From: Candidatus Hinthialibacteria bacterium OLB16
Lineage (GTDB): Bacteria; Hinthialibacterota; Hinthialibacteria; OLB16
Assembly: GCA_001567115.1 (NCBI GenBank)
Contig: LMZT01000169.1
Coordinates: 46 to 64,045, forward strand
Direction: 5' to 3'
DNA length: 64,000 nt
Part shown: positions 31,701 through 47,400 of the stretch, in pieces
Position numbering within the stretch: position 1 is the stretch's first letter
Layout of the letters: every line of letters starts with the position of its first letter
Position numbers and translations under genes: made by a program
Notes under the pieces: generated by a model
Database searches by the model: none
The model's input: only the letters and a program-made list of their open reading frames with translations
Told to the model about the DNA's origin: nothing

Positions 31701-31701
31701 C

Positions 31702-34059
31702 ATGAAGCTTCTGGTGACCCATGTAGTGCGTGCCGGCTGGCGCATTCGATACCGCCTTGCAGCGGTGGCACTGGTGGTTGCGGCTGGATTCGGAATCTAT
31801 GCGGGTGTCTATTCAGCCATCGATCTCCTGTTCGATCGTCGAAACCAGGAGTTTGAGGAAGGGCATGTGGCGGACCTTGAAGTCCGTTTTGCTCCGGAAG
31901 ATTCCCAGCGAATCCCAGATCTCGGCAGCCTGCCAGGCATCGCTGAATCTGAAAGCCGGCTGGTCTTCCCCGGCCAGATGATGCTGGCGGATCAACCACC
32001 GCTGCTGACTTTGATGGTCACGATCGACCCGGTCAATGGAGGCCATATCAACCGGCTGAAGATCCTGGAAGGCGAGGGGATCTCCCGGGACAAACCGGAC
32101 CATGTCGTCATTGATCGCAACATGGCCGCTTTCCATCATCTCAAGCCAGGGGATTCCATCGAACTGGTTATGGCCGATGAGTCCTACCACCTGAAGGTAT
32201 GCGGGATCGGCCTCTCGCCGGAGTTCCTTCTTGCACCCGCCAACCCGCGAGTTTTCATTCCCTCCAAAGGCTCCCTGGGGGTGGTGTATGGGCTTCCCCA
32301 GTTGATTCAGGAACGGGTTGGGCTGCCGATGGTCAACAGCCTGCTGATCCGGCTTAAGCCCGGAGAATCTGTCGAAAAGTGGACCGATGAAATCCTCTCG
32401 AAGCTCGAAGGGCAGCTCCTGCTCGATCAGGTGATTCCCAGCACTGAGCAGTTCGGGAGCCGTTTCCTCGAATTAAGCCTGAATGCATTCCGTGTCTGCC
32501 TCCCGGCGCTGGTGATTGTTTTTGACCTGACTGCCTTTCTGGTGACATTCTTTTTGCTCTTTCAATGGATTGTTCAGGAACGCCGTGAGATCGGCAACCT
32601 GATGGCTTTCGGCTACGACCGTGGGGTGATTGGCCTGGCCTATCTGATTCCGGTGGCGATCCTGGGGATCATCGGCAGTGTGGTGGGCCTGGCGGTTGCG
32701 CTGGCAGCCTCCTGCCTTTTTTCAACCAATTATGCCGATTCCATCGGTTTTCCTCATCCGGAGCTGGCACTCATTCCACACCATATCCTGGTGGGTGTGG
32801 GCGGGGTTGGGGTCATTCTTCTGGCAGCGGTCTCCTGGCCGTTGATCTGGTTATTGCGTCTGACTCCTCTCGAGGCGGTTCGTGAGTCGATGGGGCAGGG
32901 AACTGACCGGCTGGGGATCCTGAAACAGATTCTGGCCTGGCTTCCAGGGCGCATCTGGCTGCGATATGCCATGCGAAATCTGGCGAGAAGAAAATCGATC
33001 TCGGCCATGACCATCCTCTCGGTTGCAGCGGGGTTGGGAGTCACGATCTCCTTCTTCATCAATCTGACTTCGAATGCCGGGACAGCGGTCAACATGATTC
33101 GGAATGATCCCTGGAGTGCCATCCTCGAGTTATTCGCCCCGGTGCCGATTGAAGATGCCCGTGAATTCGAGGCAGTCGATGGAGTTGAGAAGGCTGTTCC
33201 ATTCACCAAACTTTCAGCCCGGCTTGCTGGCCCTTTATCAAAGGAGAACATTGCAATTGGTGGAATTCCTCCGGAATCCGGAATCCGTCAACCGGAAATT
33301 CTGGCTGGCCGGGGCCTGCAGGCGGGGGATCAGGAGGCCCTGGTCCTCGAGAGGAACCTGGCGGAAAAATGTGGTGTACAGATCGGGCAGAAAGTCACGA
33401 TCGATTCCTTCGGAAAGAAAAAAGAAGCAACTGTGGTGGGTTTTCTCTCCGGTGCCCTTCCGGGTGAAGCTTATGTCCCTCTTTCCTGGGCACAGGATAT
33501 CCAGGAGTCCGGGGACCTCTGTTCCGGTTTCTTTCTGATATTCAAGGGAGACCCTGAGCAGACCCGAAAGTCGCTCTTCGAGAAAGGGAATATTGCCCAG
33601 ATTACACTGAAAACAGAGATCGTGGCTAAAATTCTGGAAACCACAGGTGAGAAGGTCGGCATCATCCGCCTCGGAGCGATATTCAGTGTGGTGATTACCC
33701 TCCTGTTTATTTTCTGCAGTGTGTCTTTCACAATCCTTCAGAGGAAGCAGGAATATGTCATGCTGCGGGTGCTCGGGATGAGCGATGGCTCCATTGTCTC
33801 GACCATCATTGCGGAAGTCCTGTTCCTTGGATTGATCGCTGTTTTGCTGGCGATTCCTGTCGGCTACCAGACAGCTCACTTCCTGAACAGCCGTGTCTCG
33901 GAAGCCTGGTTCAATGTGACCCTGGTTGCCGAGATCGGTGATTTTCTGAAAACCCTGATTCCCGGGCTGCTGTTGATGCCGATTGCCGCTCTCGGGGCAA
34001 TCCGGCAGATTTTGCGTGAACCCCTGGACCGAAGCCTGAGAGAACGGCAGTGTGGTTGA
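31702..34059 (+). CDS. ABC transporter permease, FtsX-like, with two FtsX domains and large extracytoplasmic loops
   Basis: 785 aa; two 4-TM FtsX-type bundles; start overlaps the ATPase stop. Confidence 0.75.
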   Translation: MKLLVTHVVRAGWRIRYRLAAVALVVAAGFGIYAGVYSAIDLLFDRRNQEFEEGHVADLEVRFAPEDSQRIPDLGSLPGIAESESRLVFPGQMMLADQPPLLTLMVTIDPVNGGHINRLKILEGEGISRDKPDHVVIDRNMAAFHHLKPGDSIELVMADESYHLKVCGIGLSPEFLLAPANPRVFIPSKGSLGVVYGLPQLIQERVGLPMVNSLLIRLKPGESVEKWTDEILSKLEGQLLLDQVIPSTEQFGSRFLELSLNAFRVCLPALVIVFDLTAFLVTFFLLFQWIVQERREIGNLMAFGYDRGVIGLAYLIPVAILGIIGSVVGLAVALAASCLFSTNYADSIGFPHPELALIPHHILVGVGGVGVILLAAVSWPLIWLLRLTPLEAVRESMGQGTDRLGILKQILAWLPGRIWLRYAMRNLARRKSISAMTILSVAAGLGVTISFFINLTSNAGTAVNMIRNDPWSAILELFAPVPIEDAREFEAVDGVEKAVPFTKLSARLAGPLSKENIAIGGIPPESGIRQPEILAGRGLQAGDQEALVLERNLAEKCGVQIGQKVTIDSFGKKKEATVVGFLSGALPGEAYVPLSWAQDIQESGDLCSGFFLIFKGDPEQTRKSLFEKGNIAQITLKTEIVAKILETTGEKVGIIRLGAIFSVVITLLFIFCSVSFTILQRKQEYVMLRVLGMSDGSIVSTIIAEVLFLGLIAVLLAIPVGYQTAHFLNSRVSEAWFNVTLVAEIGDFLKTLIPGLLLMPIAALGAIRQILREPLDRSLRERQCG

Positions 34060-35381: not shown

Positions 35382-36779
35382 ATGATGCTGCGCCGTATAT
35401 CTGGTTTTTTGGTACTCCTTCTAGCCTTTTCACTCCTGGTGGCCTGGCGCTGTATTTCTCCGCGGATGGCCACTTCGCCACGGCTACCGATTCCAGCCAA
35501 CCACCCCTCTGCACAAACAAGCGGTGCTTCGGAGGGAAACCCGGGATCACTCAGTGTGGGGACAGGCAAACCCGGGCCTGAAACTGGTGTGTGGCCCTGT
35601 TTTCGAGGTCCAGCTCGCAATGGGATTGTCACCTCTCCACGAATTACAGCCTGGCCGGAAAAAGGTTTGCAGCCTCTCTGGAAAATCAAGGCAGGGGAAG
35701 GCCATGCGGGTGTGGCCATTGATTCCGGACGGGTGTTCCTTCTCGACTATGATGAGAGCCGGAAAGAGGATGCCATTCGCTGCCTGTCATTCACCACAGG
35801 AGAAGAGATCTGGCGCTATTCCTATTCGGTTAAAATCAAGCGGAACCATGGCATGTCGAGAACAGTTCCCGCTGTCGCCGGGGATTATGTGGTCACACTC
35901 GGCCCCAAGTGCCATTTATGCTGCCTGCAGGCTGCAAGCGGCGAACTGGTCTTCAAAAAGGATCTGGTGAAGGAATACGGCACCCGCATCCCGGAGTGGT
36001 ATGCCGGCCAATGCCCCTTGATCGATGATGGCCGTCTGATCCTTGCGCCGGGAGGCTCCTGCCTGATGACCGCAATCGAACTGGCTACTGGAAACACCCT
36101 CTGGCAGACCCCGAACCCGGAGGGCTGGCAGATGAGCCACTCCTCGATCCTGGCAATCGATTTCGAAGGGGAACGGATGTACATCTGGTGCTCATCCGAT
36201 GGAGCGGTCGGAATCCGAGCGGCGGATGGGGCACTGCTGTGGTCACTGCCCGAATGGAAAATCAAAATCGCTACCATCCCCACCCCCATCGAGATCGGTC
36301 CGGGAAAAATCCTGTTCACAGGCGGATATAATGCCGGAGCGGCAGCCTATCAGCTCGAACACCATGAAGGTGGAATTCGCCCAGCCGAGGTCTTTCGTTG
36401 CGATGCAAAAACCTATGGATCCGACCAGCAGACTCCGGTTTTCCATAATGGCCTTGTTTTCGCTGTGATTCCGGGCGGGAAACCAGCCTGTCTGACTCCT
36501 GATGGGAAAAGACAGTGGATTGAGGAGGATTACAACTTCGGTTTAGGCCCGTATCTGCTTTTCGATGACAAGATGCTGATCCTCGATGATGATCACAACA
36601 AGCCTGGGGAGTTGACCCTTTTCCAGATCGAGCCTGCAGGGTTGAAGCGTCTTGCCGGTGCAAAAGTCATCGAAGGTCATGATGCCTGGGCGCCGATGGC
36701 CTATGCCGATGGGCGGATCATTCTCCGGGATGCCACCACACTGGTGTGCCTGGATGTGTCAGGAAGTGGGGCTCCATGA
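35382..36779 (+). CDS. PQQ-like beta-propeller repeat protein (BamB/YVTN-type), signal-anchored
   Basis: N-terminal hydrophobic segment, repeated W-x-Y/F-x-G beta-propeller blades (LWKIKAGEGHAGVAIDSGRVFL, LWQTPNP..., LLWSLPEW...). Confidence 0.65.
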   Translation: MMLRRISGFLVLLLAFSLLVAWRCISPRMATSPRLPIPANHPSAQTSGASEGNPGSLSVGTGKPGPETGVWPCFRGPARNGIVTSPRITAWPEKGLQPLWKIKAGEGHAGVAIDSGRVFLLDYDESRKEDAIRCLSFTTGEEIWRYSYSVKIKRNHGMSRTVPAVAGDYVVTLGPKCHLCCLQAASGELVFKKDLVKEYGTRIPEWYAGQCPLIDDGRLILAPGGSCLMTAIELATGNTLWQTPNPEGWQMSHSSILAIDFEGERMYIWCSSDGAVGIRAADGALLWSLPEWKIKIATIPTPIEIGPGKILFTGGYNAGAAAYQLEHHEGGIRPAEVFRCDAKTYGSDQQTPVFHNGLVFAVIPGGKPACLTPDGKRQWIEEDYNFGLGPYLLFDDKMLILDDDHNKPGELTLFQIEPAGLKRLAGAKVIEGHDAWAPMAYADGRIILRDATTLVCLDVSGSGAP

Positions 36780-37708
36780 AAAACCTGACTGCCTTCCTCA
36801 AAACCTTCTGTGGGCCGGTTCTGCTGATTCTGGCTGGCATGGCATTTGGCTACTTTGCCACCCTCAAAGCCTATCCGCCTTCCCCCCATTCCGAGGGCAA
36901 ACCAGCGGCCTCAGTCCAGCTCAAATGCATCACCATCAGCCCGGATGACCGTATTTATGTGGGAGGATCCTTTGGGATTGCTGAGGTGAATACGGACCTG
37001 CAATTGAAATCACTCTTTGAACTCCCGGAAGTGGCCCAGGCTCTGGCGGCTGACACGGAGGGGAATTTTTACATTGGTTACCCGGCTGCAATTGAGAAAA
37101 GGGACTCGAAAGGGGACCTGCTGCTGCGCTGGGGGCGAGGGGGATGCGGTGGGGATGCATTCAGTTATGTTACTGGCATTGCAGTCGATGCCTCCAATGT
37201 CTTCGTCGCCGATGCCGGGCTCCGGACTGTTTTCCGGTTTTCAACCGATGGCATTCCCCTGAATGAAATATCCGGAAAGACAACAGGAGCCACAGGCACC
37301 GGTTTCTTCGTTCCAACCCCCTATTTCGATTGTGCTGTCAAAGATCAGTCCCTGTATGTCACTAATCCTGGCTGCCTGAGGGTCGAGCGCTATACCTATA
37401 AGGGGGATCTGCTCGGCTACTGGGAGCAGTCATTCGATGATCCGGACCATTTTCCCGGCTGCAGCAATCCGACACACCTGGCCATTTTCCCTGACCTGCA
37501 TGTTGCCGCTTCTCAAAAAGGGAAAGCCTATGTCCGGATTTACACAAGCGAGGGCAAGCCGGTTCTCGATCTCGGGCGGGATATTTTTCCTGAAAGCACA
37601 CGAGGCCTTGATGCAGCGGTAGACAGCAAAGGCCTGCTGTATGTAGTCGATCCACATGCACTTTGTGTCCGTAAGTTCGATATCTCAGCTGCGGCGGGAA
37701 AATCATGA
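36776..37708 (+). CDS. NHL-repeat beta-propeller protein with N-terminal TM anchor
   Basis: ATGA overlap with the upstream gene; TM helix FCGPVLLILAGMAFGYF; NHL-like blades (FYIGYPAAIEKRDSKGDLLLRWG, VTGIAVDASNVFVADAG, LLYVVDPHALCVRKFD). Confidence 0.6.
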   Translation: MKNLTAFLKTFCGPVLLILAGMAFGYFATLKAYPPSPHSEGKPAASVQLKCITISPDDRIYVGGSFGIAEVNTDLQLKSLFELPEVAQALAADTEGNFYIGYPAAIEKRDSKGDLLLRWGRGGCGGDAFSYVTGIAVDASNVFVADAGLRTVFRFSTDGIPLNEISGKTTGATGTGFFVPTPYFDCAVKDQSLYVTNPGCLRVERYTYKGDLLGYWEQSFDDPDHFPGCSNPTHLAIFPDLHVAASQKGKAYVRIYTSEGKPVLDLGRDIFPESTRGLDAAVDSKGLLYVVDPHALCVRKFDISAAAGKS

Positions 37709-37744
37709 ACCGAACCGAGCCGCACATCATCCTGATGGGAGGAG

Positions 37745-38317
37745 ATGAAGATGAGTAAACCAGATCCAGCCGAGGGCCGAAGATCCTTTCTTGAAAAAAT
37801 GACCAAAGGAGTCAGCTTCTTTGCCTTGGGAGGAGTGACCGGCAAGCTGCTTTCCAATGCCCTGCGTGAAGAAATGGTCTGGCAGATCGATCCACTGAAA
37901 TGTATTCAGTGTGGCAATTGTGCGACTGCCTGTGTCCTGACCCCCTCCGCAAGCAAATGTTACCATGATTTTTCGATGTGTGGTTACTGCCGGGTCTGTA
38001 CCGGATTCTTTCCAACCGATCCGACCACACTGGATGAAGGTGCGGAGAATCAGCTCTGCCCGGTCGGAGCGATCCAGAGGAAATTCGTCGAAGAGCCTTA
38101 TTATGAATATGAGATCGATCGAACACTCTGCATCGGGTGCGCACGCTGCGCCAAAGGGTGCACATCCTATGGGAATGGCTCCCTGTATATGCAGATCGAT
38201 CGCACCCTGTGTGTGAACTGTAACCAGTGCGCCATAGCGCTGGTTTGTGAAGGCAAAGCATTTTCAAGAGTGCCTGTGGAGCAACAGTATGTCCTGAAAG
38301 GCTCCAGAATGTCATGA
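37745..38317 (+). CDS. Tat-exported ferredoxin-type protein with four [4Fe-4S] motifs (NapG/MauM-like)
   Basis: Twin-arginine motif GRRSFLEK then a hydrophobic region; four CxxCxxCxxxC(P) clusters (CIQCGNCATAC, CGYCRVCTGF, CIGCARCAKGC, CVNCNQCAIALVC). Confidence 0.8.
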   Translation: MKMSKPDPAEGRRSFLEKMTKGVSFFALGGVTGKLLSNALREEMVWQIDPLKCIQCGNCATACVLTPSASKCYHDFSMCGYCRVCTGFFPTDPTTLDEGAENQLCPVGAIQRKFVEEPYYEYEIDRTLCIGCARCAKGCTSYGNGSLYMQIDRTLCVNCNQCAIALVCEGKAFSRVPVEQQYVLKGSRMS

Positions 38318-39423
38318 AGGGCTTTGGGGTCGCATGTTGCCTGCTGCTGGCGGCCATTCCAGGCGGGTATGCCGAACGCAGGTTCCCACCTCCGGACTTT
38401 GAAACCGGCTACACCCAGCCACCGGTTGTTTTCCAGGAGGTTCGGACCCCTGTATCGCAATATGTTGACCTCACTCTGCTGGTCGTCTGTCTGGCCATTG
38501 GAACCTGGCTGCTGCATTACCGTCGGAGCCGGCGTGGAATTTTTCTCCTGGGGCTGTTTGCAGTCCTCTACTTCGGTTTTTATAAAAATGGCTGCATCTG
38601 CCCGATCGGGTCGATTCAGAATGTGACACTCGCACTGCTGGATCCCCATTACCCCATCTCTCTTGCTGTCATCGGGATATTCATTGCGCCTCTTTTGTTC
38701 TCTCTCTTTTATGGAAGGGTATTTTGTGGAGGAGTTTGCCCGCTGGGGGCAATCCAGGATCTTTTTCTGTTCCGGACCCTGAGGGTTCCACGGTGGCTCG
38801 AGGGAAGCCTGGGGCTGTGCCGTTATTTTTACCTCGGCATTGCCATCTATACAGTGGCAGAGTATTCGCGCTTTGTGATCTGCGAATACGATCCCTTTGT
38901 GGGCTTTTTCCGTATGAGCGGACTCCCCTGGAAATTAGGCCTGGGTGCGGCGCTGCTGGGAATCGGGCTGTTTATCCCACGCCCCTATTGCCGCTACCTG
39001 TGCCCTTATGGCGGCTTGTTATCACTGCTGGCGCGCAGGTCATCCACCTGGGTGAGAATCACCCCCACAGACTGCACAAACTGCACATTGTGTGATGCGG
39101 CCTGCCCTTATGAGGCCATTCTCCGCCCGGAAGAACCGATTCGCCCTGAAGGAAGCTGGCGCTTCAAAATTATTCTGGCCAGCCTGGGGGTGATGGCGCT
39201 GTTTATTGCATCTGGATTCTATCTTTTCGGAACCGCCCTGAGTGGAATCCTCCTCAGTACCTGGTTTGGTGTCGTTATCGCTTCAAAAATGATGACCCAG
39301 GCCTTTTCGAACCGCCGCAACCACTTTGAGACCGATCACGCGGCCTGTTTATCCTGTGGCCGCTGTTACGAATACTGCCCTTATGGAAAGACAATGCAGG
39401 AGATCGATGCACATGCTGGATAA
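38314..39423 (+). CDS. Integral-membrane iron-sulfur protein, NapH/MauN/CcoG-like
   Basis: 4 TM helices with two CxxxCP motifs (FCGGVCPLG, YCRYLCPYGG) and two C-terminal ferredoxin motifs (CTNCTLCDAACPYE, CLSCGRCYEYCPYG); ATGA overlap with the upstream gene. Confidence 0.8.
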   Translation: MKGFGVACCLLLAAIPGGYAERRFPPPDFETGYTQPPVVFQEVRTPVSQYVDLTLLVVCLAIGTWLLHYRRSRRGIFLLGLFAVLYFGFYKNGCICPIGSIQNVTLALLDPHYPISLAVIGIFIAPLLFSLFYGRVFCGGVCPLGAIQDLFLFRTLRVPRWLEGSLGLCRYFYLGIAIYTVAEYSRFVICEYDPFVGFFRMSGLPWKLGLGAALLGIGLFIPRPYCRYLCPYGGLLSLLARRSSTWVRITPTDCTNCTLCDAACPYEAILRPEEPIRPEGSWRFKIILASLGVMALFIASGFYLFGTALSGILLSTWFGVVIASKMMTQAFSNRRNHFETDHAACLSCGRCYEYCPYGKTMQEIDAHAG

Positions 39424-41140
39424 TCTCCTGGCATTGTTTGACAGGAAAACTACAATTTACCTTGTCGCTGCAAGCGGAGTGTTTTCGCTGGTTGTCATAA
39501 TTGGCCTCTGTTTTGATGGGCTGTGGTATCGCCCGATGCCTGTCTTTGATGTCCCGCTTCTTGAGATGAGGGAGACACTGAGAAAGAACCCTCAAGACCA
39601 GGCCTTGCGTGAAGAGATTCGCCATCTGGACCAGGTGGTTCGCCAGGATTTCATCACCACAAGAAAGCGTCTGCTGGTTGGAGGATACCTCCTGTTCTTC
39701 AGCCTCCTGATTTTTGTCCTGTCGTTGCGAAGATGGACTGTGCTGCAGCAGAAATTGCCGGAACCCCTCCTGTTGTCTCAGCTGGCCGAGCATCCCCAGG
39801 CACAAATGAATTTATTCAGAACTCTCGCCTTTTTCTGCATCCCGCTGGCGCTGCTCTCACTCTATGGGCTTTCATATCTGAAGCACCACCCCCAAATCGT
39901 AAATGAGGCAGGTCTTCAGGCTCCTCAACCACCAGGGCCACCGCTCGAAATTCTGGTGCCTGACAATCAGAAATGGCCTCAACTGCGCGGGCCAAAGGGG
40001 TCAGGGGTTGTCGATGATCCCAATCTGCCTGTTTCATGGGATGTCGAGAAGGCTGAGAATCTTGTCTGGAAAGTTGAAATTCCGGGGAAAGGCCACAGCT
40101 CGCCAGTGATCTGGGGGGATCGCCTTTATATCACGACCGGGGATTTCGAAAGCCGGAAGGTCCTCTGCTACCAGCGAAGTGATGGGAACCTGGTGTGGTC
40201 CTGTGCACTGAGGACCAATGCACAGCTGGATGAAGAGCTGAAGGAAGATGAGGGGGATACCGGCCTGGCTGCTCCGACTGCTGTCACCGATGGACATTAC
40301 ATTGTCGCATTCTTCGGAACCAATGAGATTGCCGGAATCGACAGAGAGGGCCGCCAGATCTGGTCAAGATGGTTCGGCCCTCCGGACAGTGATTTCGGAA
40401 TTGCATCTTCTCCCATTCTCTCCGGGTCAACCGTTTACCTGCAGCTGGATCAGGGAAGCAAAGAAAAGAAGCATTCCATGCTCTATGCTCTGGATATTGC
40501 CAGCGGAAAGCCCCGTTGGGAGATCCCCCGTGAGGTCCCCTGCTCCTGGAGCACTCCGATTCTGGTTGAAAGCAATGGACGGAGCGAACTGATCACTGCC
40601 GCCGATCCATGGGCCATATCGTATGATCCGGTCAGTGGAAAGGAAATCTGGCGCGCGAAAGTTTTGTCCGGTGCAGTTGCACCCATGCCCGCATCCTGCA
40701 ATGGATTCTTTTTTACAGCGACAGAATATTCACAGCTGGCCGCCATCAAAACGGGTGGGCAAGGCGATATCACCGAAACCCATGTGGCCTGGACCATGGA
40801 AAGTGACCTCCCGGATGTAGCCGGCATGGTCACTGATGGAAAACTGCTGATCCTTCCCAATGGGACCGGTAAGGTGCGCTGCTTCGATGTATTGACTGGA
40901 AAACGAATCTGGACTCAGGAGTATGACAATGGTTTCTGGTCAAATCCAACCCTGAATGGTGATCTTGTCTATATGACTGATATGGAAGGGACGACTTTCA
41001 TTTTCAAACTGGCTGATAAATACGAAGAGGTTGGCCAGGGGAAATTCGGAGAGCCTGTTCTGACTTCATTTGCTGTCGCAGACTCACGTTTCTATGTCCG
41101 CGGCGAAAAATACCTTTATTGCCTGGGGAAACCCCAATGA
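39407..41140 (+). CDS. Membrane-anchored PQQ-like beta-propeller repeat protein
   Basis: Two N-terminal TM helices then an 8-blade PQQ-type propeller (LVWKVEIPGKGHSSPVIWGDRLYITT ..., KPRWEIP..., KEIWRAKV..., KRIWTQEYD...). Confidence 0.7.
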   Translation: MHMLDNLLALFDRKTTIYLVAASGVFSLVVIIGLCFDGLWYRPMPVFDVPLLEMRETLRKNPQDQALREEIRHLDQVVRQDFITTRKRLLVGGYLLFFSLLIFVLSLRRWTVLQQKLPEPLLLSQLAEHPQAQMNLFRTLAFFCIPLALLSLYGLSYLKHHPQIVNEAGLQAPQPPGPPLEILVPDNQKWPQLRGPKGSGVVDDPNLPVSWDVEKAENLVWKVEIPGKGHSSPVIWGDRLYITTGDFESRKVLCYQRSDGNLVWSCALRTNAQLDEELKEDEGDTGLAAPTAVTDGHYIVAFFGTNEIAGIDREGRQIWSRWFGPPDSDFGIASSPILSGSTVYLQLDQGSKEKKHSMLYALDIASGKPRWEIPREVPCSWSTPILVESNGRSELITAADPWAISYDPVSGKEIWRAKVLSGAVAPMPASCNGFFFTATEYSQLAAIKTGGQGDITETHVAWTMESDLPDVAGMVTDGKLLILPNGTGKVRCFDVLTGKRIWTQEYDNGFWSNPTLNGDLVYMTDMEGTTFIFKLADKYEEVGQGKFGEPVLTSFAVADSRFYVRGEKYLYCLGKPQ

Positions 41141-41973
41141 TTGTCACAGGTCAACAGGAGATCGTGCTTGCTGAGGTTGACCGGATTGTAGAAACAGTCG
41201 GCGGCAATGGCCAGCAGGTTATACAAATTCTCCAGGCGATACAGGAAAAATACCGCTATCTTCCCACAGAAGCGCTGGAGCGTGTTTGTGAGCTCACTGA
41301 TATATCACCGGCACGCATTGCAGGGGTTGCATCATTTTATTCCCAGTTCCGATTCAACCCGGTGGGGCTGCATCAGATCCGGGTGTGCCATGGAACTGCC
41401 TGCCATGTCAAAGGCTCAGCTCTGGTCCAGGATTCCATTGAACGGCACCTTGATATCGGAATGGACAGGGACACGACAACCGATGGCCTTTTCACAGTTG
41501 AAAAAGTTGCCTGTCTGGGATGCTGCACTCTTGCTCCGGTTGTTCAGATCGATGACCTTGTTTATGGGGGTCTGACACCCGACAAGGTTCCTGTAGTCAT
41601 CAGAAGCTTCCTGAATAATCCACAGCTGCGCAATGGCTCGGTTGAAACACAGGCAGATGATGAAGCAATCGAGAATGTTTTCGGTGAAATTCGGATCGGA
41701 CTGGGATCCTGCTGTGTTGCCAAAGGAAGCGACCGGTTGAAAACCGCGCTCGAAGATGCGATTCGAGAAACAGGCGCACGCGCTGTCGTCAAAAGGGTTG
41801 GCTGTGTGGGAATCTGCCATCAGACCCCACTCATCGAAGTGATTGCTCCCGACCAGACATCTCATCTCTATGCCGACCTCAAACCGACTGAAGCAAAGAA
41901 CCTTGTCGTCAAACATTTTCCCGAGGCGGTCGGTTTTCAAGAAAATCAGCCATTCTCTCAACCGTGTGCTTGA
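41137..41973 (+). CDS. NuoE-like [2Fe-2S] subunit fused to a thioredoxin-like [2Fe-2S] ferredoxin domain (HndA+HndB-like)
   Basis: NuoE motifs VCHGTACHVKGS ... CLGCCTLAPVVQID; second domain IGLGSCCVAKGS ... VGCVGICHQTPLIEV. The 3' end overlaps the next ORF in a different frame (possible fusion, see findings). Confidence 0.75.
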   Translation: MIVTGQQEIVLAEVDRIVETVGGNGQQVIQILQAIQEKYRYLPTEALERVCELTDISPARIAGVASFYSQFRFNPVGLHQIRVCHGTACHVKGSALVQDSIERHLDIGMDRDTTTDGLFTVEKVACLGCCTLAPVVQIDDLVYGGLTPDKVPVVIRSFLNNPQLRNGSVETQADDEAIENVFGEIRIGLGSCCVAKGSDRLKTALEDAIRETGARAVVKRVGCVGICHQTPLIEVIAPDQTSHLYADLKPTEAKNLVVKHFPEAVGFQENQPFSQPCA

Positions 41974-43507
41974 AAAAATATTCCAGGATGATGCCTGGGA
42001 ACCGGTTGACAGATTTTCCATTCATGTTCGTGATGAACCGGTTTCTGCCTTTCTGAGCCGCCAGATCCACATTGCGACAGAGCATGGAGGAACACTGAAT
42101 CCATTTGATCTCGAGGAGTACATCCACCACCAGGGATTCGCTGCACTTAGAAAGTGCCTTGAATCGTATACGCCCGCCCAGATCATCGACCAGATTGCTG
42201 AAAGCGGATTGAGAGGAAGAGGGGGCGCCGGTTTTCATTCAGCGACAAAGTGGCGAAAGGTCCGCGAATCTCCCGGAGAGATCAAATATGTCATCTGTAA
42301 TGGGGATGAGGGTGATCCAGGAGCATTCATGGACCGGATGCTGCTCGAATCCTTCCCGTTCCGTGTCATCGAAGGAATGATTATCGCGGCTTATGCTGTC
42401 GGCGCATCCGAGGCTATCTTCTATGTGCGTGCAGAATACCCGCTGGCTTTGAAAGTCCTCCGGCGAGCGCTGGCGCTTTGTGAAGGGAATGGTTATATCG
42501 GCGGCAATATCCTGGGGAGTGATTACTCAATTCATTTCCATATCGCCGAGGGAGCCGGAGCCTTTGTTTCCGGGGAAGAAACTGCACTGCTGGCATCAGT
42601 TGAAGGGAAGAGAAGCATCCCGAGAATCAGGCCGCCTTACCCTGCGGAAAAAGGGCTATGGGATCAGCCCACGCTCATCAACAATGTCGAAACATATTCC
42701 CTGGTGCCATGGATTCTGCGTGAAGGGGCTGAGTCCTTTGCAGCCCTTGGAACAGCCACCAGCAAAGGGACCAAAGTGTTTGCCCTTGCAGGAAAAGTGA
42801 AACGGGGTGGTTTGATCGAAGTGCCGATGGGGATCACCATCCGGGAGGTTGTTAATGAAATTGGTGGCGGTGTTGCAGATGGAAGGCAGTTCAAAGCGGT
42901 TCAGGTAGGTGGCCCGTCTGGCGGCTGTGTTCCTGCAGCACTTGCTGATACTCCCATAGATTTCGAAGCGCTCCAGTCAATCGGGGCCATCATGGGATCC
43001 GGTGGGCTGGTCGTTTTGGATGATACGGATTGCATGGTGGACATTTCCAGATACTTTCTGCAGTTCACTCAGAATGAGAGCTGTGGGAAATGCACACTGT
43101 GCCGCATTGGTTCCAAGCGGATGCTTGAAATTGTCACCCGTTTGTGTGAAGGGAAAGGGCGGCCACAGGATATAGGCATTCTCGAAGAGCTGTCTGCCGG
43201 AATGAAAGCGGCCAGCTTCTGTGGTCTGGGAAAAACCGCCCCCAATCCGGTCTTGACTTCGCTCCGTTATTTTCGTGAGGAATATCTTGCGCATGTGGAA
43301 GGCCGCTGCCCGGCCGGAAAATGCAAGGCATTGATCCGCTACAGGATTGAGGACCACTGTATTGGCTGCACAATCTGCGCACAGCACTGTCCAGTCGGTG
43401 CAATCCATTCAATCCCCTACCAGCTGCATACCATCGATGATTCACTCTGTGTGCGTTGCGACATGTGCCGTTCGGCCTGTCCCGAGAAAGCAGTCAAGGT
43501 GGTTTGA
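41843..43507 (+). CDS. NuoF-like NAD(P)H-binding flavoprotein subunit with C-terminal 2x[4Fe-4S] ferredoxin domain (HydB/HndC/StnB-like)
   Basis: SGLRGRGGAGF, FMN/NADH-binding GDEGDPGAF, ESCGKCTLCR 4Fe-4S, C-terminal CIGCTICAQHCP and CVRCDMCRSACP. The true start is uncertain: either GTG near 41957 or fused to the upstream gene through a T4 homopolymer frameshift at 41934-41937. Confidence 0.8.
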   Translation: MLPTRHLISMPTSNRLKQRTLSSNIFPRRSVFKKISHSLNRVLEKIFQDDAWEPVDRFSIHVRDEPVSAFLSRQIHIATEHGGTLNPFDLEEYIHHQGFAALRKCLESYTPAQIIDQIAESGLRGRGGAGFHSATKWRKVRESPGEIKYVICNGDEGDPGAFMDRMLLESFPFRVIEGMIIAAYAVGASEAIFYVRAEYPLALKVLRRALALCEGNGYIGGNILGSDYSIHFHIAEGAGAFVSGEETALLASVEGKRSIPRIRPPYPAEKGLWDQPTLINNVETYSLVPWILREGAESFAALGTATSKGTKVFALAGKVKRGGLIEVPMGITIREVVNEIGGGVADGRQFKAVQVGGPSGGCVPAALADTPIDFEALQSIGAIMGSGGLVVLDDTDCMVDISRYFLQFTQNESCGKCTLCRIGSKRMLEIVTRLCEGKGRPQDIGILEELSAGMKAASFCGLGKTAPNPVLTSLRYFREEYLAHVEGRCPAGKCKALIRYRIEDHCIGCTICAQHCPVGAIHSIPYQLHTIDDSLCVRCDMCRSACPEKAVKVV

Positions 43508-43510
43508 CCC

Positions 43511-45499
43511 ATGCCAGATATGGTTTCACTGATAATTGATGGCATACCGGTCCAGGTGGCCTCGGGAGAGACGATCCTCCAGGCTGCAGAGAAATCCGGC
43601 ATTCAAATCCCCACACTCTGCTTCATGGAAGGCCTTGCCGACCTGGAATCCTGCGGTGTGTGTGTGGTCGAAGTGGAGGGAAACCCAAATCTTCTTCCAT
43701 CCTGTGTATCGAGATGCCTGCCTGATATGAAAATCCGTACTGATTCCGAAAAGGTTCGAAAGGCCAGGAAGCTGGCACTCGAACTGTTGTTGTCGGACCA
43801 TCTCGGGGATTGCCAGGCGCCCTGTGAACTGGCCTGTCCTGCGGAAATTGACATCCCCGAGTTCATTCGGCAGATACGATACAACCATCCGGACAAAGCC
43901 CTGCGAGTTATTCTGGAAAAGATCGCCTTTCCGGGAGTTCTCGGCAGGATCTGTCCCAAGTTCTGTGAAGGTGTCTGTCGTCGTGGGGAATATGATGAGC
44001 CTGTTTCTATCTGCTCCCTGAAAAGATTTCCGGCAGACATCGTTCCACAGGATATTAAACAGCAGCAGCACTCTGCTGTTGTCAGGTCCGGAAAGAAAGT
44101 TGCAATCCTCGGTTCTGGTGTCGTTGGCCTGACTGCAGCCTATTATCTCACACTCGCCGGGCATGAGTGTATTGTCTTTGAGGCTGCACCGAGGCCTGGC
44201 GGGGCGATGAGGAATATCATTCCGGAATTTCGACTTCCCGCACAGGTGATTGATGATGAAATTGCGGACATTCAATCACTTGGTGTCAAGATTCACTGCA
44301 ACCAGGCCCTCGGAAAGGATGTTTTCCTGGATGACCTGCGAAATGAATATGATGCAATTCTGCTGGCTATTGGTGCAAATGGGGAAAAACATCCAACCTT
44401 CTCCGGTTCTGATCTGGGCCAATCGTGTTTCAACTTCCTCGAACAGGTTGCCTATGGTGCCTGCACATCGGTTGAGAAAAATGTAGTCATCATCGGCTCC
44501 GGGCCTACCTCTCTGGATTCTGCAAGAACATGCCTGCGGCTGGGAGCTGAAGAAGCCACCATGATAATCCCGTCTTCGCAGCGCACCCATTTCTTCTTTA
44601 CACCGCAACTGCAATACGCGCTTGAAGAAGGTGTCAAGATTCATTATGACAGTGAGATATTATCCACTGCCATCGGAGCAAACCGGCAGATTTCGTGTGA
44701 AGTGAATACCTCTGGAGATCGTTGGGTGATAACTGCGGACCAGATTTTCCTCTCCGGGCATGTCGAGGCTGATGTCCAGCTGCTGGAAGAACTCGGATTC
44801 AAAACCCTCCGGGGAGGAGTCCAGATTGATAAGAAGACCCTGGAAACAAATATCCCGGGGGTCTTTGCGGCCGGCAACATCGCCCAGTCCGGCCGGTATG
44901 CGGTCCATGGCTCGGCTTCAGGCCGGATTGTTGCCGAGTCTATTCATCGTTACCTCACTGGCATCCCGCCACAGCCCGAATGGATCAATGTTCGGATGCA
45001 GCATCTGACAGAGGATGAAAAGGAACTTCTGGGGAAAGACCGGCATGACATTTCACGATTGATGGATTTGATTCTTTCTCCTGAATTCCGTTCCCATAAT
45101 TTCGAGGAATTCAATCAGGGACTCACTACAGATGCAGCGATCAAGGAAGCGGCACGCTGCCTGAACTGTGATTGCGCCAGCAAAAGAGAGTGCTCACTTC
45201 GCATCCAGTCGACATTATGCGATGCAAATCCACGGGCATTTCGTGGAGACAGGCCGGCCTTTGAAAAAGATGATTCACACCCGGATATTGTTTATGAATC
45301 CGGCAAGTGCATCAAATGCGGGCGCTGCATTGCTATTGCGGAGCAGCACCGTGAAAAGTATGGCTTGACCTACATCGGCAGGGGATTTTCAGTCAAAGTG
45401 CAGACACCGATCATGGGAAAAATCGCCGAGGGCCTTTCTCTGGTTGCGATTGAATGTGCCAAGGCCTGTCCGACCGGAGCACTCTCCAGAAAGCGGTGA
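43511..45499 (+). CDS. Fusion of a NuoG-N-terminal-type [2Fe-2S]/[4Fe-4S] ferredoxin domain with a glutamate-synthase-small-subunit-like (GltD/NfnB) FAD/NAD(P)H oxidoreductase (StnA-like)
   Basis: N-terminus IDGIPVQVASGETILQAAEKSGIQIPTLCF ... CGVCVVEVEG; dinucleotide folds KKVAILGSGVVGLTAAYYL and VVIIGSGPTSLD; AGNIAQ; C-terminal Cys cluster CIKCGRC. Confidence 0.8.
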   Translation: MPDMVSLIIDGIPVQVASGETILQAAEKSGIQIPTLCFMEGLADLESCGVCVVEVEGNPNLLPSCVSRCLPDMKIRTDSEKVRKARKLALELLLSDHLGDCQAPCELACPAEIDIPEFIRQIRYNHPDKALRVILEKIAFPGVLGRICPKFCEGVCRRGEYDEPVSICSLKRFPADIVPQDIKQQQHSAVVRSGKKVAILGSGVVGLTAAYYLTLAGHECIVFEAAPRPGGAMRNIIPEFRLPAQVIDDEIADIQSLGVKIHCNQALGKDVFLDDLRNEYDAILLAIGANGEKHPTFSGSDLGQSCFNFLEQVAYGACTSVEKNVVIIGSGPTSLDSARTCLRLGAEEATMIIPSSQRTHFFFTPQLQYALEEGVKIHYDSEILSTAIGANRQISCEVNTSGDRWVITADQIFLSGHVEADVQLLEELGFKTLRGGVQIDKKTLETNIPGVFAAGNIAQSGRYAVHGSASGRIVAESIHRYLTGIPPQPEWINVRMQHLTEDEKELLGKDRHDISRLMDLILSPEFRSHNFEEFNQGLTTDAAIKEAARCLNCDCASKRECSLRIQSTLCDANPRAFRGDRPAFEKDDSHPDIVYESGKCIKCGRCIAIAEQHREKYGLTYIGRGFSVKVQTPIMGKIAEGLSLVAIECAKACPTGALSRKR

Positions 45500-45627
45500 C
45501 TCAGTGAGCTGTACCGGTGGATAGGTATCTCTGCTCCAACCCATGGGGCAGTGTGGCTCTCTGCTATCTTTAACAGAATCAAAGATCGTTGTGCTCGCCC
45601 TGAAAAAAGTGGATACGCAGGCCAGCC

Positions 45628-47302: not shown

Positions 47303-47400
47303 CACATGGTCTGCTGAGCGAATCTGATATGAATAATGTACCTGATTAGCTGAAGCAAGGCAACGAGTCCAGCGGGTCAGAGGGTAAAAAGGAGGACTGA

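What the first reader, a model, noticed from the sequence alone, without database searches (positions are those of the whole stretch)
41137..45499. Stn/Bfu-like putative flavin-based NAD(P)H module with unusual domain fusions (NuoE+Trx-like(+NuoF) and NuoG-Nterm+GltD)
The soluble module has the cofactor-domain inventory of the NuoE/NuoF/GltD-type three-subunit transhydrogenases (Sporomusa-type Nfn / HydABC-like Bfu family) but no hydrogenase or formate dehydrogenase catalytic domain. It contains a NuoE [2Fe-2S], a thioredoxin-like [2Fe-2S] and a NuoF FMN/NADH site plus 4Fe-4S clusters. It also has a NuoG-type N-terminal ferredoxin fused to a GltD/NfnB-like FAD/NAD(P)H oxidoreductase. NuoE and the Trx-like domain are fused in one ORF. 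This ORF may be fused further to NuoF if the T4 run at 41934-41937 holds an inserted T (removing one T gives ...KHFPEAVGFKKISHSLNRVLEKIFQDD... continuous). Its placement in an operon with membrane NapGH-like proteins is unusual for this enzyme class, which is normally cytoplasmic
Basis: partly seen in the sequence, partly recalled or inferred. Interest (0 to 1): 0.7.

Follow-up and report, generated by a model that had tools for sequence, protein, structure and literature searches.

The report
Membrane-linked electron-bifurcation-type NADH module
The flagged genes encode an NADH/ferredoxin iron-sulfur flavoprotein of the known electron-bifurcating "Bfu" family, but its apparent gene split is a sequencing error and it belongs to a widespread, undescribed operon that appears to wire it through the membrane to periplasmic proteins of unknown function.

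Summary
The domain inventory at 41137-45499 is real. The NuoE/Trx-like and NuoF ORFs are one gene. The source MAG (Ca. Hinthialibacteria OLB16) was IonTorrent-sequenced. The corrected 789-aa protein (NuoE + Trx-like + NuoF + 2x[4Fe-4S]) carries the tested sequence hallmarks of a fused BfuC-BfuB core; the Zn-site ligands were only partly assigned. Its closest solved relatives are the NfnABC/StnABC B subunits.

The 662-aa partner is a pared-down NfnA/StnC. It keeps the FeS wire and the FAD motif. It lacks the Fdh-like domain, clusters A4/A5 and the canonical NADPH motifs. In other phyla it shrinks to about 525 aa, then to an FeS-only protein of about 320 aa. A classical NADPH transhydrogenase is therefore unlikely.

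The operon is conserved: two periplasmic propellers, a Tat-exported polyferredoxin, a NapH-like membrane protein, a TM-anchored propeller, BfuCB and BfuA. A NapH-like gene lies upstream in 48 of 52 related loci from Planctomycetota, Bacteroidota, Verrucomicrobiota and others. In three sequences the membrane hairpin is fused directly to BfuCB. Best reading: a membrane-associated Bfu variant that exchanges electrons with the periplasm. The terminal partner is unknown.

The parts
30969..31700 (+). ABC-transporter ATPase (context; recurrent neighbour of the cluster)
   Evidence: ORF list. ABC_tran is called for the identical gene in L001-L007. A homologous ABC ATPase sits next to the cluster in 14 of 30 fully flanked loci.
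31702..34059 (+). MacB/FtsX-type ABC permease, 785 aa (context; recurrent neighbour)
   Evidence: FtsX + MacB_PCD + FtsX on the identical gene in L001-L007. FtsX/MacB permeases of 1029-1113 aa lie beside the cluster in 15 of 30 fully flanked loci, upstream or downstream.
35382..36779 (+). PQQ1: secreted BamB/PQQ_2-type beta-propeller, 465 aa, first gene of the operon
   Evidence: PQQ_2 E 5e-21. One N-terminal hydrophobic segment. Invariant across 25 sequences from several phyla: H156, C181, C211, M251, H253, C370, C456. A profile search against PDB finds only BamB and quinoprotein propellers.
36776..37708 (+). NHL-repeat six-bladed propeller, 310 aa, N-terminal signal or anchor
   Evidence: NHL repeat. 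Deposited as KXK28724 'NHL repeat protein'. Conserved F-x-G-C-(C)-N-P motif. PDB profile hits are NHL/TRIM propellers only.
37745..38317 (+). NapG-like Tat-exported polyferredoxin, 190 aa, about 4x[4Fe-4S]
   Evidence: Fer4 families. The twin-arginine motif GRRSFLEK has R12 and R13 conserved in at least 90% of 42 homologues, and 17 conserved Cys form four cluster motifs. No NapG-specific NCBIfam hit.
38314..39423 (+). NapH-like integral-membrane FeS protein, 369 aa (Fer4_5 CX3CP motifs plus two cytoplasmic 4Fe-4S motifs)
   Evidence: Fer4_5 E 2e-12. NapH NF007013 scores 69 bits and TIGR02163 67 bits, both below their curated cut-offs of 234 and 213. Multiple TM segments. Its start overlaps the NapG-like stop codon (ATGA).
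39407..41140 (+). PQQ2: three-TM-anchored BamB/PQQ_2 beta-propeller, 577 aa; probable membrane anchor for BfuCB
   Evidence: PQQ_2 E 4e-24. Three conserved TM segments with a KR-rich second loop. Its stop codon overlaps the BfuCB start (ATGA at 41137-41140). In L042, P0109 and P0119 the TM1-loop-TM2 hairpin is fused to the BfuCB N-terminus instead.
41137..43507 (+). BfuCB: one gene for a 789-aa fused NuoE (C1 2Fe-2S) + Trx-like (B5) + NuoF (FMN, NADH, B1) + 2x[4Fe-4S] (B3/B4) protein, broken in this assembly by one extra T
   Evidence: Pfam. PDB best hits are NfnB/StnB/HydB at 534-666 bits, against 395 for FdsB and 360 for Nqo1. P0001 is an intact 789-aa protein, 99% identical, found on 86 contigs. 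The corrected translation differs from P0001 at 4 residues. Motifs present: GRGGAGF 360-366, NGDEGDPG 388-395, and Cys at 649/652/655/695, 741-751 and 771-781.
41916..41919 (+). T4 homopolymer holding the spurious extra T (true frameshift site)
   Evidence: All 8 loci L001-L008 (98.6-99.3% nt identity) have T3 here. The source assembly, OLB16, was sequenced on IonTorrent PGM, and its authors report persistent frameshifts.
43511..45499 (+). Minimal BfuA (NfnA/StnC-like), 662 aa: A1 2Fe-2S; NfnL/GltD-like domain with A6/A7 and the FAD motif; a degenerate second Rossmann subdomain; A2 and A3 clusters. No A4, A5 or Fdh-like domain
   Evidence: phmmer gives E 1e-116 to 9bov_A residues 5-672 of 1178. 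Pfam: Fer2_4, Fer4_20, Pyr_redox_2, Fer4_Nqo3. Cys map. Three of the four A4 ligands are replaced (alignments). NADPH motifs are absent. The subdomain at residues 301-440 has conservation 0.33, against 0.52-0.61 elsewhere.

Best explanation
Window 35382-45499 is one seven-gene operon. It appears to encode a membrane-associated variant of the Bfu (HydBC/StnAB-type) flavin/FeS enzyme family.

BfuCB is a single 789-aa polypeptide once the sequencing error is removed. It binds NAD(H) at FMN and carries the [B1-FMN-C1] site plus the C-terminal B3/B4 ferredoxin-docking clusters.

BfuA (662 aa) is reduced to the FeS wire A1-A2-A3-A6-A7, with an FAD domain at its end. Its NADPH subdomain is degenerate, so NADP(H) is probably not the conserved third substrate.

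Instead, the module is held at the membrane by the 3-TM N-terminus of the PQQ2 protein. It exchanges electrons with the cytoplasmic 4Fe-4S clusters of a NapH-like membrane protein. That protein relays them to a Tat-exported NapG-like polyferredoxin and on to periplasmic BamB-like and NHL-like propellers.

The most likely direction is outward. NADH, with ferredoxin as co-substrate in a bifurcating or confurcating mode, would supply electrons to a periplasmic acceptor or process.

Shown: gene structure, cofactor motifs, family relationship, conserved synteny, and the fusion evidence. Inferred: physical docking to the NapH-like protein, direction of electron flow, bifurcation itself, and the periplasmic acceptor, which remains unknown.
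For: (1) Family. All three parts hit Csac NfnABC, Tsi NfnABC and Sov StnABC best. The BfuB hallmarks that non-bifurcating homologues lack (N-terminal Trx-like domain, C-terminal 2x[4Fe-4S]) are present, and they are invariant in 25 diverse homologues (criteria from PMC9304861).

(2) Single gene. The intact 789-aa form occurs in 8 near-identical loci, and the 120 best homologues, mostly 777-835 aa, all span the fused query.

(3) NADPH is not the conserved partner. Canonical NADPH motifs are absent from every cluster-linked BfuA except L069. They are present in 10 of 11 Nfn-Bfu loci without the cluster. Cluster-linked BfuA ranges from 733-662 aa through about 525 aa (no NADPH subdomain, e.g. Maribellus luteus) to about 320 aa (no flavin domain, Parabacteroides L066). 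A1, A6/A7, A2 and A3 are kept throughout.

(4) Coupling to the membrane module. A NapH-like gene lies upstream in 48 of 52 loci with BfuCB at 51% identity or more, and in 0 of 10 at 49% or less. Genes share one strand and have overlapping stop and start codons. The phyla covered are Hinthialibacterota, Planctomycetota, Bacteroidota, Verrucomicrobiota, Kiritimatiellia, Lentisphaerota, Hydrogenedentota and Calditrichia.

(5) Rosetta-stone evidence. In L042, P0109/L094 and P0119/L093 the PQQ2 propeller is gone. Its TM-loop-TM hairpin is fused to the BfuCB N-terminus, directly after the NapH-like gene.

(6) The NapG-like protein has a conserved twin-arginine signal.
Against: - There is no biochemical or structural evidence for a BfuCBA/NapH contact. 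Synteny and a weak HMM match for the fused hairpin (E 1e-4 to 2e-3, TM-rich sequence) are indirect.
- Four related loci (L016, L023, L035, L049) lack NapGH/propeller genes in the upstream flank that was held, at most 10 kb.
- The window's BfuA keeps a second Rossmann-like subdomain with a GxG motif, so some nucleotide binding cannot be excluded. L069 keeps canonical NADPH motifs inside the same operon type.
- The propellers show no recognisable redox cofactor motif and no CxxCH. PDB profile hits are only BamB and NHL scaffolds, so a terminal acceptor is not identified.
- Bifurcation cannot be read from sequence.
Confidence: 0.6

Rival explanations
1. It is an ordinary cytoplasmic Stn/Nfn-Bfu transhydrogenase (NADPH + NAD+ + Fd) that merely lies next to unrelated NapGH-like and propeller genes.
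For: The best PDB relatives of all three parts are the characterised NfnABC/StnABC enzymes. BfuA keeps the FAD GxGxxG motif, the A6/A7 cysteines and a second Rossmann-like subdomain. Fused BfuCB also occurs with full-length NADPH-type BfuA in genomes without the cluster, such as Thermosediminibacter and Paludibacter.
Against: GGGNTAMD, YRRxxxEMPA and the GEPDxSGRRRP loop are absent. The subdomain is the least conserved part of the protein, and it is deleted in most lineages with the same operon. The Fdh-like domain is missing; in Stn and Csac Nfn that domain anchors the NuoE-like subunit and forms the tetramer. Synteny with the NapGH-like genes holds in 48 of 52 loci, and there are TM-hairpin fusions to BfuCB.
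Confidence: 0.15
2. It is a non-bifurcating NADH dehydrogenase module, used like NuoEFG, FdsBG or HoxEFU. It simply feeds NADH electrons through BfuA into the NapH-like protein, to quinone or to the periplasm, without ferredoxin.
For: Bifurcation is never provable from sequence. The complex has an obvious single exit wire through BfuA. NapH homologues are quinol dehydrogenases in Nap systems (general knowledge), so an NADH:quinone or NADH:periplasm function is the simplest chemistry.
Against: The protein keeps the features that distinguish Bfu B subunits from non-bifurcating NuoF, FdsB and Nqo1. These are the N-terminal Trx-like 4-Cys domain, the H719/C724/C729 site and the C-terminal 2x[4Fe-4S] domain, all invariant in 25 homologues. 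Scores are 534-666 bits to bifurcating B subunits, against 395 to FdsB and 360 to Nqo1.
Confidence: 0.2
3. The split is real in this strain. A NuoE+Trx-like protein (HndA-like, 278 aa) and a separate NuoF protein (HndC-like, about 513 aa) are made, as in the deposited annotation.
For: The deposited OLB16 record annotates KXK28728 (278 aa) and KXK28729 (513 aa). A Logan contig of SRR29904083 reproduces the neighbouring sigma-54 activator frameshift of this assembly.
Against: All 8 independent assemblies at about 99% identity have T3, and the index lists the intact protein in 120 blocks of the collection. OLB16 was IonTorrent-sequenced, with acknowledged residual frameshifts. Another 8-9 single-base indels, mostly +1 in short homopolymer runs, break or alter other genes between 45.5 and 51.4 kb. 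No candidate restart codon (41843, 41870, 41903, 41966) has a Shine-Dalgarno sequence. The Logan contig does not cover 41916.
Confidence: 0.07

Closest known systems
NfnABC (Nfn-Bfu) of Caldicellulosiruptor saccharolyticus (PDB 9BOV) and Thermococcus sibiricus (9N5U); StnABC of Sporomusa ovata (8OH5)
   Same: The BC core has the same domain order and cofactor motifs (FMN, B1, B3, B4, the Trx-like domain, C1), with HMMER scores of 640-666 bits. BfuA has the same unusual topology: a 2Fe-2S N-terminal domain, an inserted NfnL/GltD-like FAD domain with two 4Fe-4S clusters, then NuoG-type clusters (E 1e-103 to 1e-116).
   Different: Here C and B are one polypeptide. BfuA stops at about residue 672 of 1172-1178, so it has no Fdh-like domain, no A5, and no A4 ligands. 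The canonical NADPH motifs are missing. The genes sit in a conserved operon with membrane and periplasmic proteins, whereas Nfn/Stn are soluble three-subunit enzymes (PMC10482914, PMC11829005, PMC12018979).
Electron-bifurcating hydrogenases HydABC / NiFe-HydABCSL (7P5H, 8A6T, 7Q4V, 7T2R)
   Same: A homologous HydB/HydC core, scoring 561-603 bits, with the same proposed FMN/FeS bifurcation site.
   Different: There is no H-cluster or NiFe subunit. BfuA here has no catalytic domain beyond a flavin domain that is probably vestigial.
Predicted membrane-bound Bfu enzymes Nuo-Bfu and Mbh-Bfu (Schut et al. 2022, PMC9304861)
   Same: The same idea: a BfuBC core wired to an integral membrane module, predicted from operon structure.
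   Different: Those use complex-I or Mbh antiporter-like modules. This one uses a NapH-like polyferredoxin membrane protein, a Tat-exported ferredoxin and beta-propellers. It was not found in that paper, in its one supplementary file held as text, or in my other searches.
NapGH quinol dehydrogenase and the NapH-family relatives MauMN, NosGH and NosR
   Same: A Fer4_5 membrane protein with CX3CP motifs and cytoplasmic 4Fe-4S clusters, paired with a Tat-exported 4x[4Fe-4S] ferredoxin. From general knowledge, MauMN and NosGH/NosR likewise accompany periplasmic beta-propeller enzymes (MADH, NosZ).
   Different: Scores are far below the NapH/MauN curated cut-offs (69 against 234 bits). There are two extra TM helices between the two FeS motifs. 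No napA/B/C, nosZ or mau genes are present. The cytoplasmic partner is a Bfu module rather than the quinone pool alone.
NCBIfam NF009454 (PRK12814, 'putative NADPH-dependent glutamate synthase small subunit', 657-aa profile)
   Same: A similar-length architecture of 2Fe-2S + GltD + C-terminal FeS. The match covers profile positions 3-633 (E 2e-147).
   Different: The score of 493 bits is below the 916-bit equivalog cut-off, so the protein is not a member. From memory only, untested: Geobacter SfrB may belong to that architecture.

Membership tests
Bfu family (BfuBC core; Schut et al. 2022) | BfuB: NuoF-type FMN/NADH site plus the B1 [4Fe-4S] cluster | tested here: met
   Complex1_51K 3e-41 and NADH_4Fe-4S 5e-31. 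GRGGAGF 360-366, NGDEGDPG 388-395, and C649/C652/C655/C695. All are invariant in A1.
Bfu family (BfuBC core; Schut et al. 2022) | BfuB C-terminal domain with two [4Fe-4S] clusters (B3, B4), absent from non-bifurcating NuoF, FdsB and Nqo1 | tested here: met
   Fer4_21/Fer4 at residues 464-514 of the NuoF ORF. C741/744/747/751 and C771/774/777/781 are invariant. The criterion is from PMC9304861.
Bfu family (BfuBC core; Schut et al. 2022) | BfuB N-terminal thioredoxin-like domain (B5 site: 2Fe-2S or Zn) | tested here: met
   Residues 184-260 align to residues 2-77 of 9bov_B and 8oh5_B. Four invariant Cys: 192, 193, 223, 227.
Bfu family (BfuBC core; Schut et al. 2022) | B2 (Zn, 3Cys+1His) site between the NuoF core and the C-terminal domain | tested here: inconclusive
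   H719, C724 and C729 are invariant. The fourth ligand was not assigned, and metal identity cannot be tested from sequence.
Bfu family (BfuBC core; Schut et al. 2022) | BfuC: NuoE-like subunit with the C1 [2Fe-2S] cluster | tested here: met
   2Fe-2S_thioredx E 5e-52. C84, C89, C126 and C130 are invariant. Here it is fused to BfuB.
Bfu family (BfuBC core; Schut et al. 2022) | BfuA with at least the A1 and A2 clusters feeding the core | tested here: met
   Fer2_4 (C37/48/51/65), H97-x3-C101 and C550-x2-C553-x-C555-x5-C561 align to Csac NfnA.
Bfu family (BfuBC core; Schut et al. 2022) | Coupled NAD(H)/ferredoxin bifurcating or confurcating activity | not testable with these tools
   Needs enzyme assays.
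Nfn-Bfu / Stn transhydrogenase | NfnL/GltD-like domain inserted in BfuA, with FAD and two [4Fe-4S] clusters (A6, A7) | tested here: met
   Fer4_20 2e-22 and Pyr_redox_2 1e-26. GSGVVG 201-206. Seven Cys at 101-168.
Nfn-Bfu / Stn transhydrogenase | Canonical NADPH-binding Rossmann subdomain (GGGNTAMD, YRRxxxEMPA, GEPDxSGRRRP loop) | tested here: not met
   The window has GSGPTSLD...IIPSSQRTHFFF, and the loop is deleted. The motifs are absent in 60 of 61 cluster-linked BfuA ORFs, some of them partial. They are present in 10 of 11 Nfn-Bfu loci without the cluster. Conservation of this subdomain is low.
Nfn-Bfu / Stn transhydrogenase | C-terminal pterin-free Fdh/NuoG-like domain with the A4/A5 branch | tested here: not met
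   The protein ends at the equivalent of residue 672 of 1178 in 9bov_A. There is no Molybdopterin Pfam hit. Three of the four A4 ligands are replaced.
Nfn-Bfu / Stn transhydrogenase | NADPH-dependent reduction of Fd that requires NAD+ | not testable with these tools
   Needs enzyme assays.
NapGH quinol dehydrogenase | NapH: membrane protein with CX3CP motifs and two cytoplasmic 4Fe-4S motifs, reaching the NapH/MauN family thresholds | tested here: inconclusive
   Fer4_5 is above the Pfam threshold (47 bits against 22). NF007013 scores 69 against 234 and TIGR02163 scores 67 against 213, both below cut-off. It is NapH-like, not NapH.
NapGH quinol dehydrogenase | Genetic association with the periplasmic nitrate reductase genes napA/napB/napC | tested here: not met
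   No molybdopterin or cytochrome c genes occur in the operon, in the window or in related loci.
HndABCD NADP-reducing hydrogenase (deposited annotation) | [FeFe]-hydrogenase catalytic subunit HndD in the operon | tested here: not met
   No Fe_hyd domain appears in the window operon or in relatives.

The most novel reading that the evidence does not exclude
This would be a new class of Bfu enzyme that is widespread in FCB and PVC bacteria and several candidate phyla. Its 'third substrate' would not be a soluble molecule. It would be a NapH/NapG-type transmembrane polyferredoxin conduit. NADH/ferredoxin bifurcation or confurcation in the cytoplasm would then drive, or be driven by, a redox process in the periplasm. 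That process would be carried out on conserved BamB-like and NHL-like propellers, and may be linked to the frequently co-located MacB-type ABC exporter and GT4 glycosyltransferase.
Probability: 0.4. Interest if true: 0.8.

Novelty: new variant of a known kind. Interest (0 to 1): 0.62.

Why it matters
Bfu-type enzymes are the least understood class of flavin-based electron bifurcation. Every characterised member is soluble, and the only membrane-bound forms proposed so far are complex-I-like or Mbh-like.

A conserved operon that ties a complete BfuBC core to a NapH/NapG-like transmembrane relay would extend bifurcation chemistry to periplasmic redox processes. It occurs in very common anaerobic and facultative polysaccharide degraders: Bacteroidota, Planctomycetota, Verrucomicrobiota, Kiritimatiellia and others.

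The operon also provides a natural deletion series of BfuA, from about 1170 aa to about 320 aa. That series independently supports the published claim that the A4/A5 and Fdh-like branch is dispensable.

Cultured carriers such as Maribellus luteus make the system experimentally tractable.

A practical point: the deposited OLB16 annotation (HndA, HndC, PreT) is misleading and rests on an uncorrected homopolymer error.

Tried and rejected
The alignment to 8 loci places the only indel in this gene at 41916-41919.
- Programmed frameshift or re-initiation is rejected. No Shine-Dalgarno sequence precedes 41843, 41870, 41903 or 41966. Nine or so other homopolymer indels occur downstream, and the data are IonTorrent.
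- A NapH-BfuCB gene fusion in L042 was checked. A stop codon separates the two genes. What is fused to BfuCB is the PQQ2-type TM hairpin.
- A sigma-54 promoter upstream of the operon was sought. No -24/-12 match lies near 35.2-35.4 kb. The only plausible site (47287-47302) precedes the pseudopilin gene, and overall match counts equal chance.
- Cofactor clues in the propellers were sought. There are no CxxCH motifs. NCBIfam and Pfam give only generic PQQ_2, BamB and NHL hits. Profile-versus-PDB searches return BamB, quinoprotein and TRIM-NHL scaffolds. No function could be assigned.
- Literature searches for a NapGH-linked Bfu/NuoEF system found nothing (the Schut et al. supplementary file held as text; and the Kiritimatiella, Hydrogenedentota, Omnitrophota and Hinthialibacterota papers). 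This covers only the open-access library available.
- Structure prediction and fold search were not run. The sequence matches to solved Nfn/Stn structures were already decisive for the cytoplasmic part, and propeller folds were unlikely to discriminate function.

Full report
**What is in the window.** On the + strand, 35382-45499 holds a tight gene array:
- PQQ_2 propeller with a signal peptide (35382-36779).
- NHL-like propeller (36776-37708).
- NapG-like ferredoxin with a GRRSFLEK twin-arginine signal (37745-38317).
- NapH-like Fer4_5 membrane protein (38314-39423).
- A 3-TM-anchored PQQ_2 propeller (39407-41140).
- The three ORFs of the finding.

Stop and start codons overlap (ATGA) at 38314-38317 and 41137-41140.
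- NuoE-type 2Fe-2S_thioredx (E 5e-52) plus a second Trx-like region in ORF 41137-41973.
- Complex1_51K, SLBB, NADH_4Fe-4S and a C-terminal 2x[4Fe-4S] domain in the next ORF.
- Fer2_4 + Fer4_20 + Pyr_redox_2 + Fer4_Nqo3 in 43511-45499.

No hydrogenase or molybdopterin domain is present.

**The frameshift.** Searching with a joined NuoE-NuoF protein gave P0001. It is an intact 789-aa protein, 99% identical, seen on 86 contigs. The 120 best homologues are mostly 777-835 aa, with a few longer ones up to 934 aa, and all span the fused query. Eight loci at 98.6-99.3% nucleotide identity (L001-L008) carry the same gene order with the intact gene. The base-by-base comparison shows one indel in this gene: the window has TTTT at 41916-41919 where all eight have TTT. 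The true junction is ...VVKHFPRRSVFKKISHSL.... Removing one T gives a 789-aa product that differs from P0001 at four residues.

Exact-sequence look-up identifies the source as Candidatus Hinthialibacteria bacterium OLB16, on a contig of 64,351 bp. The two halves were deposited there as "HndA" (278 aa) and "HndC" (513 aa), and the third protein as "PreT". OLB16 was sequenced on IonTorrent PGM, and its authors mention persistent frameshifts (PMC4821891). The window also carries another 8-9 single-base indels, mostly +1 in short homopolymer runs, relative to all or most relatives between 45.5 and 51.4 kb. These split a sigma-54 activator and a roughly 1000-aa ORF. No candidate restart codon has a Shine-Dalgarno sequence. 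I conclude with about 0.9 confidence that the split is an assembly error and that the real gene is a fused BfuC-BfuB.

**Family assignment of the cytoplasmic module.** Against all PDB sequences, the NuoF part scores as follows:

| PDB chain | Enzyme | Bits |
|---|---|---|
| 9bov_B | Csac NfnB | 666 |
| 9n5u_B | Tsi NfnB | 644 |
| 8oh5_B | Sov StnB | 640 |
| several | HydB proteins | 561-603 |
| 6vw7_B | non-bifurcating FdsB | 395 |
| 2fug_1 | Nqo1 | 360 |

The NuoE part and the 662-aa protein rank the same three enzymes first. The joined protein aligns end to end with NfnB/StnB from its residue 184.

Schut et al. (PMC9304861) distinguish true Bfu cores from non-bifurcating homologues by the extra clusters of BfuB. 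All of these features are present here, and they are invariant in a 25-sequence alignment spanning several phyla:
- FMN and NADH motifs.
- B1 (C649/652/655/695).
- B3 and B4 (C741-751, C771-781).
- The Trx-like 4-Cys site (C192/193/223/227).
- H719/C724/C729 at the Zn/B2 position.
- C1 of NuoE (C84/89/126/130).

Membership of the Bfu family is therefore met at the sequence level. Bifurcation itself cannot be tested.

**BfuA is a pared-down NfnA/StnC, and probably not an NADPH site.**
- The 662-aa protein aligns to residues 5-672 of the 1178-aa Csac NfnA (E 1e-116).
- It keeps A1 (C37/48/51/65), the seven cysteines of the NfnL-type A6/A7 pair, the FAD GxGxxG motif (201-206), the A2 motif (C550-C561) and A3 (C600/603/606 + C653-P).
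- It lacks three of the four A4 ligands, A5, and the whole Fdh-like domain.
- What remains is exactly the functional path FAD-A7-A6-A3-A2-A1 defined by cryo-EM. The discarded A4/A5/Fdh-like branch is the one both structural papers call a non-functional remnant (PMC11829005; PMC10482914).
- The second (NADPH) Rossmann subdomain is degenerate. It has GSGPTSLD instead of GGGNTAMD and IIPSSQRTHFFF instead of YRRTREEMPA, and the GEPDxSGRRRP hairpin is deleted.
- Among 44 long-form homologues this subdomain has mean conservation 0.33, against 0.52-0.61 for every other cofactor domain.

**Comparative genomics.** A genome scan with the BfuCB alignment returned 80 loci. tblastn with the window's proteins gave these results:
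- Loci with BfuCB at 51-70% identity nearly always carry the same array. A NapH-like gene lies upstream in 48 of 52 loci that have at least 4 kb of flank.
- NapG + NapH + PQQ2 are present in 37 of 42 loci with at least 7.5 kb of flank, and all five upstream genes in 30 of 42.
- The ten loci at 49% identity or less (e.g. Thermosediminibacter, Paludibacter) have none of these genes. They carry a full-length BfuA.

Regex tests on the BfuA partners show canonical NADPH motifs in 10 of 11 of the loci without the cluster. Only one cluster-linked protein has them (L069). Elsewhere the cluster-linked BfuA is about 525 aa, with the NADPH subdomain deleted but the FAD domain kept (Maribellus luteus). 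In gut and host-associated Bacteroidales it is about 320 aa with no flavin domain at all, while A1, A6/A7, A2 and A3 remain (L066). What is conserved is therefore an FeS wire, not an NADP(H) site.

The carriers span Hinthialibacterota, Planctomycetota, Bacteroidota (including cultured Maribellus luteus and Draconibacterium), Verrucomicrobiota, Kiritimatiellia, Lentisphaerota, Hydrogenedentota and Calditrichia. Closer relatives show the same order. In one (L011) BfuA is encoded elsewhere on the contig.

**Evidence that the module is membrane-associated.** PQQ2 has three conserved TM segments. Its second loop is KR-rich, which places the propeller in the periplasm. Its gene is translationally coupled to bfuCB. 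In L042, and in P0109 and P0119 (loci L094, L093), the propeller is absent. A TM-charged loop-TM hairpin is instead fused to the N-terminus of a 931-934-aa BfuCB, whose start overlaps the NapH-like stop codon. An HMM of PQQ2 N-termini hits only these sequences (E 1e-4 to 2e-3). That match is weak, but it is collinear and specific. Together with the synteny, this is Rosetta-stone-type support for a BfuCB/PQQ2/NapH membrane complex. It also fixes the topology, because the NuoE domain must be cytoplasmic. The NapG-like protein keeps its twin-arginine pair in at least 90% of 42 homologues and has four 4Fe-4S motifs.

**Proposed mechanism.** NAD(H) reacts at FMN of BfuCB. The [B1-FMN-C1] site and the B3/B4 domain allow coupling to ferredoxin, as in HydABC and NfnABC. 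The mid-potential branch runs A1-A2-A3-A6-A7(-FAD) through BfuA and continues into the cytoplasmic clusters of the NapH-like protein. From there it crosses the membrane to the NapG-like polyferredoxin and reaches the propellers. Docking, direction and acceptor are all inferred. The propellers give no cofactor clue. PQQ1 does have an unusually rich set of invariant Cys, His and Met residues, and the NHL protein has a conserved G-C-(C)-N-P motif. A MacB-type ABC exporter (15 of 30 fully flanked loci; present in the window at 30969-34059) and a GT4 glycosyltransferase (13 of 30) recur next to the array. This hints at a link to an exported glycoconjugate, but it is not explained.

**Rivals and limits.**
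- A soluble Stn-like transhydrogenase is disfavoured by the motif loss and by the synteny.
- A simple non-bifurcating NADH dehydrogenase cannot be excluded without assays.
- A genuine gene split is unlikely.
- Four related loci lack the membrane genes in the upstream flank that was held, at most 10 kb.
- I found no description of this operon in the searchable literature. That absence covers only the library available here.

**Verdict.** The frameshift guess is right in spirit but wrong in position, and the shift is artefactual. The module is a Bfu-family member by sequence. It is not a bona fide Nfn/Stn-type enzyme, because two of the features of that group that were tested are not met.

Noticed in passing
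window 45628-47084 (- strand): A sigma-54-type activator (PAS + Sigma54_activat + HTH_8) is split into 292-aa and 193-aa ORFs by +1 insertions at 46115 (T4 vs T3) and 46208 (A5 vs A4). Three more insertions at 46871, 46874 and 46888 together keep the frame. The gene is an intact 483 aa in L001-L008.
   Followed up: partly
window 50866-53302 and 53211: An ORF of about 1000 aa, intact in the relatives, is split at 51374 (G4 vs G3) into 175-aa and 648-aa ORFs. A 16-bp deletion relative to all relatives lies at 53211.
   Followed up: partly
Logan contig of SRR29904083 (7579 bp, roughly window 42157-49735): A separate public assembly reproduces the window's sigma-54 activator split exactly and encodes the identical 662-aa protein. 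It may derive from the same data or from the reference sequence, or the indels may be real in some population. It does not cover 41916.
   Followed up: no
window 47287-47302, upstream of 47401-48036 and 48121-49614: A -24/-12-like element, TGGCCTGGTCTTTGCT, lies about 100 bp upstream of a prepilin-type N-methyl (pseudopilin-like) gene, which is followed by a Laminin_G_3 protein. It may be the target of the adjacent sigma-54 activator. The pattern count over the whole window equals chance.
   Followed up: partly
L042 9578-12388; L093 1891-4695 (P0119); L094 7187-9991 (P0109): BfuCB variants of 931-934 aa carry an N-terminal TM-charged loop-TM hairpin that resembles the N-terminus of PQQ2. The PQQ2 propeller gene is absent in these loci, and the NapH-like gene overlaps the BfuCB start.
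   Followed up: yes
L042 5467-7947: The PQQ1 and NHL-like propellers are encoded as one 826-aa ORF, which suggests that the two periplasmic propellers act together.
   Followed up: no
L012 10001-12595 (P0016, 864 aa): This BfuCB has an additional C-terminal ferredoxin-like domain: a second copy of the 2x[4Fe-4S] region.
   Followed up: no
window 30969-34059; e.g. L050 14111-20794, L039 15124-22158: A MacB/FtsX-type ABC exporter recurs beside the operon in several phyla, either upstream or downstream. In many loci a GT4 glycosyltransferase and a fourth PQQ_2 propeller recur as well. Counts among 30 fully flanked loci are 15 for the permease, 13 for GT4 and 18 for the extra propeller.
   Followed up: partly
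window 35382-36779 (PQQ1) and 36776-37708 (NHL-like): PQQ1 has many invariant polar and redox-capable residues across phyla: K153, H156, R160, C181, Y207, Q210, C211, M251, H253, Y316, Q349, C370, R449, D450 and C456. The NHL-like protein has a conserved F-x-G-C-(C)-N-P motif. A metal or cofactor site is possible but unidentified.
   Followed up: partly
window 34145-35350 (- strand); L009 3686-4693 and 15960-17231; L011 17785-18870: MtaA/CmuA-like (URO-D family) methyltransferase genes lie next to the operon in the window and in its closer relatives. Their relevance is unknown.
   Followed up: no
window 39000-40000: The N-terminal TM region of PQQ2 is a local hot spot of substitutions against the ~99%-identical relatives: 22-23 mismatches in this kb, against 3-17 in other kb windows.
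   Followed up: no
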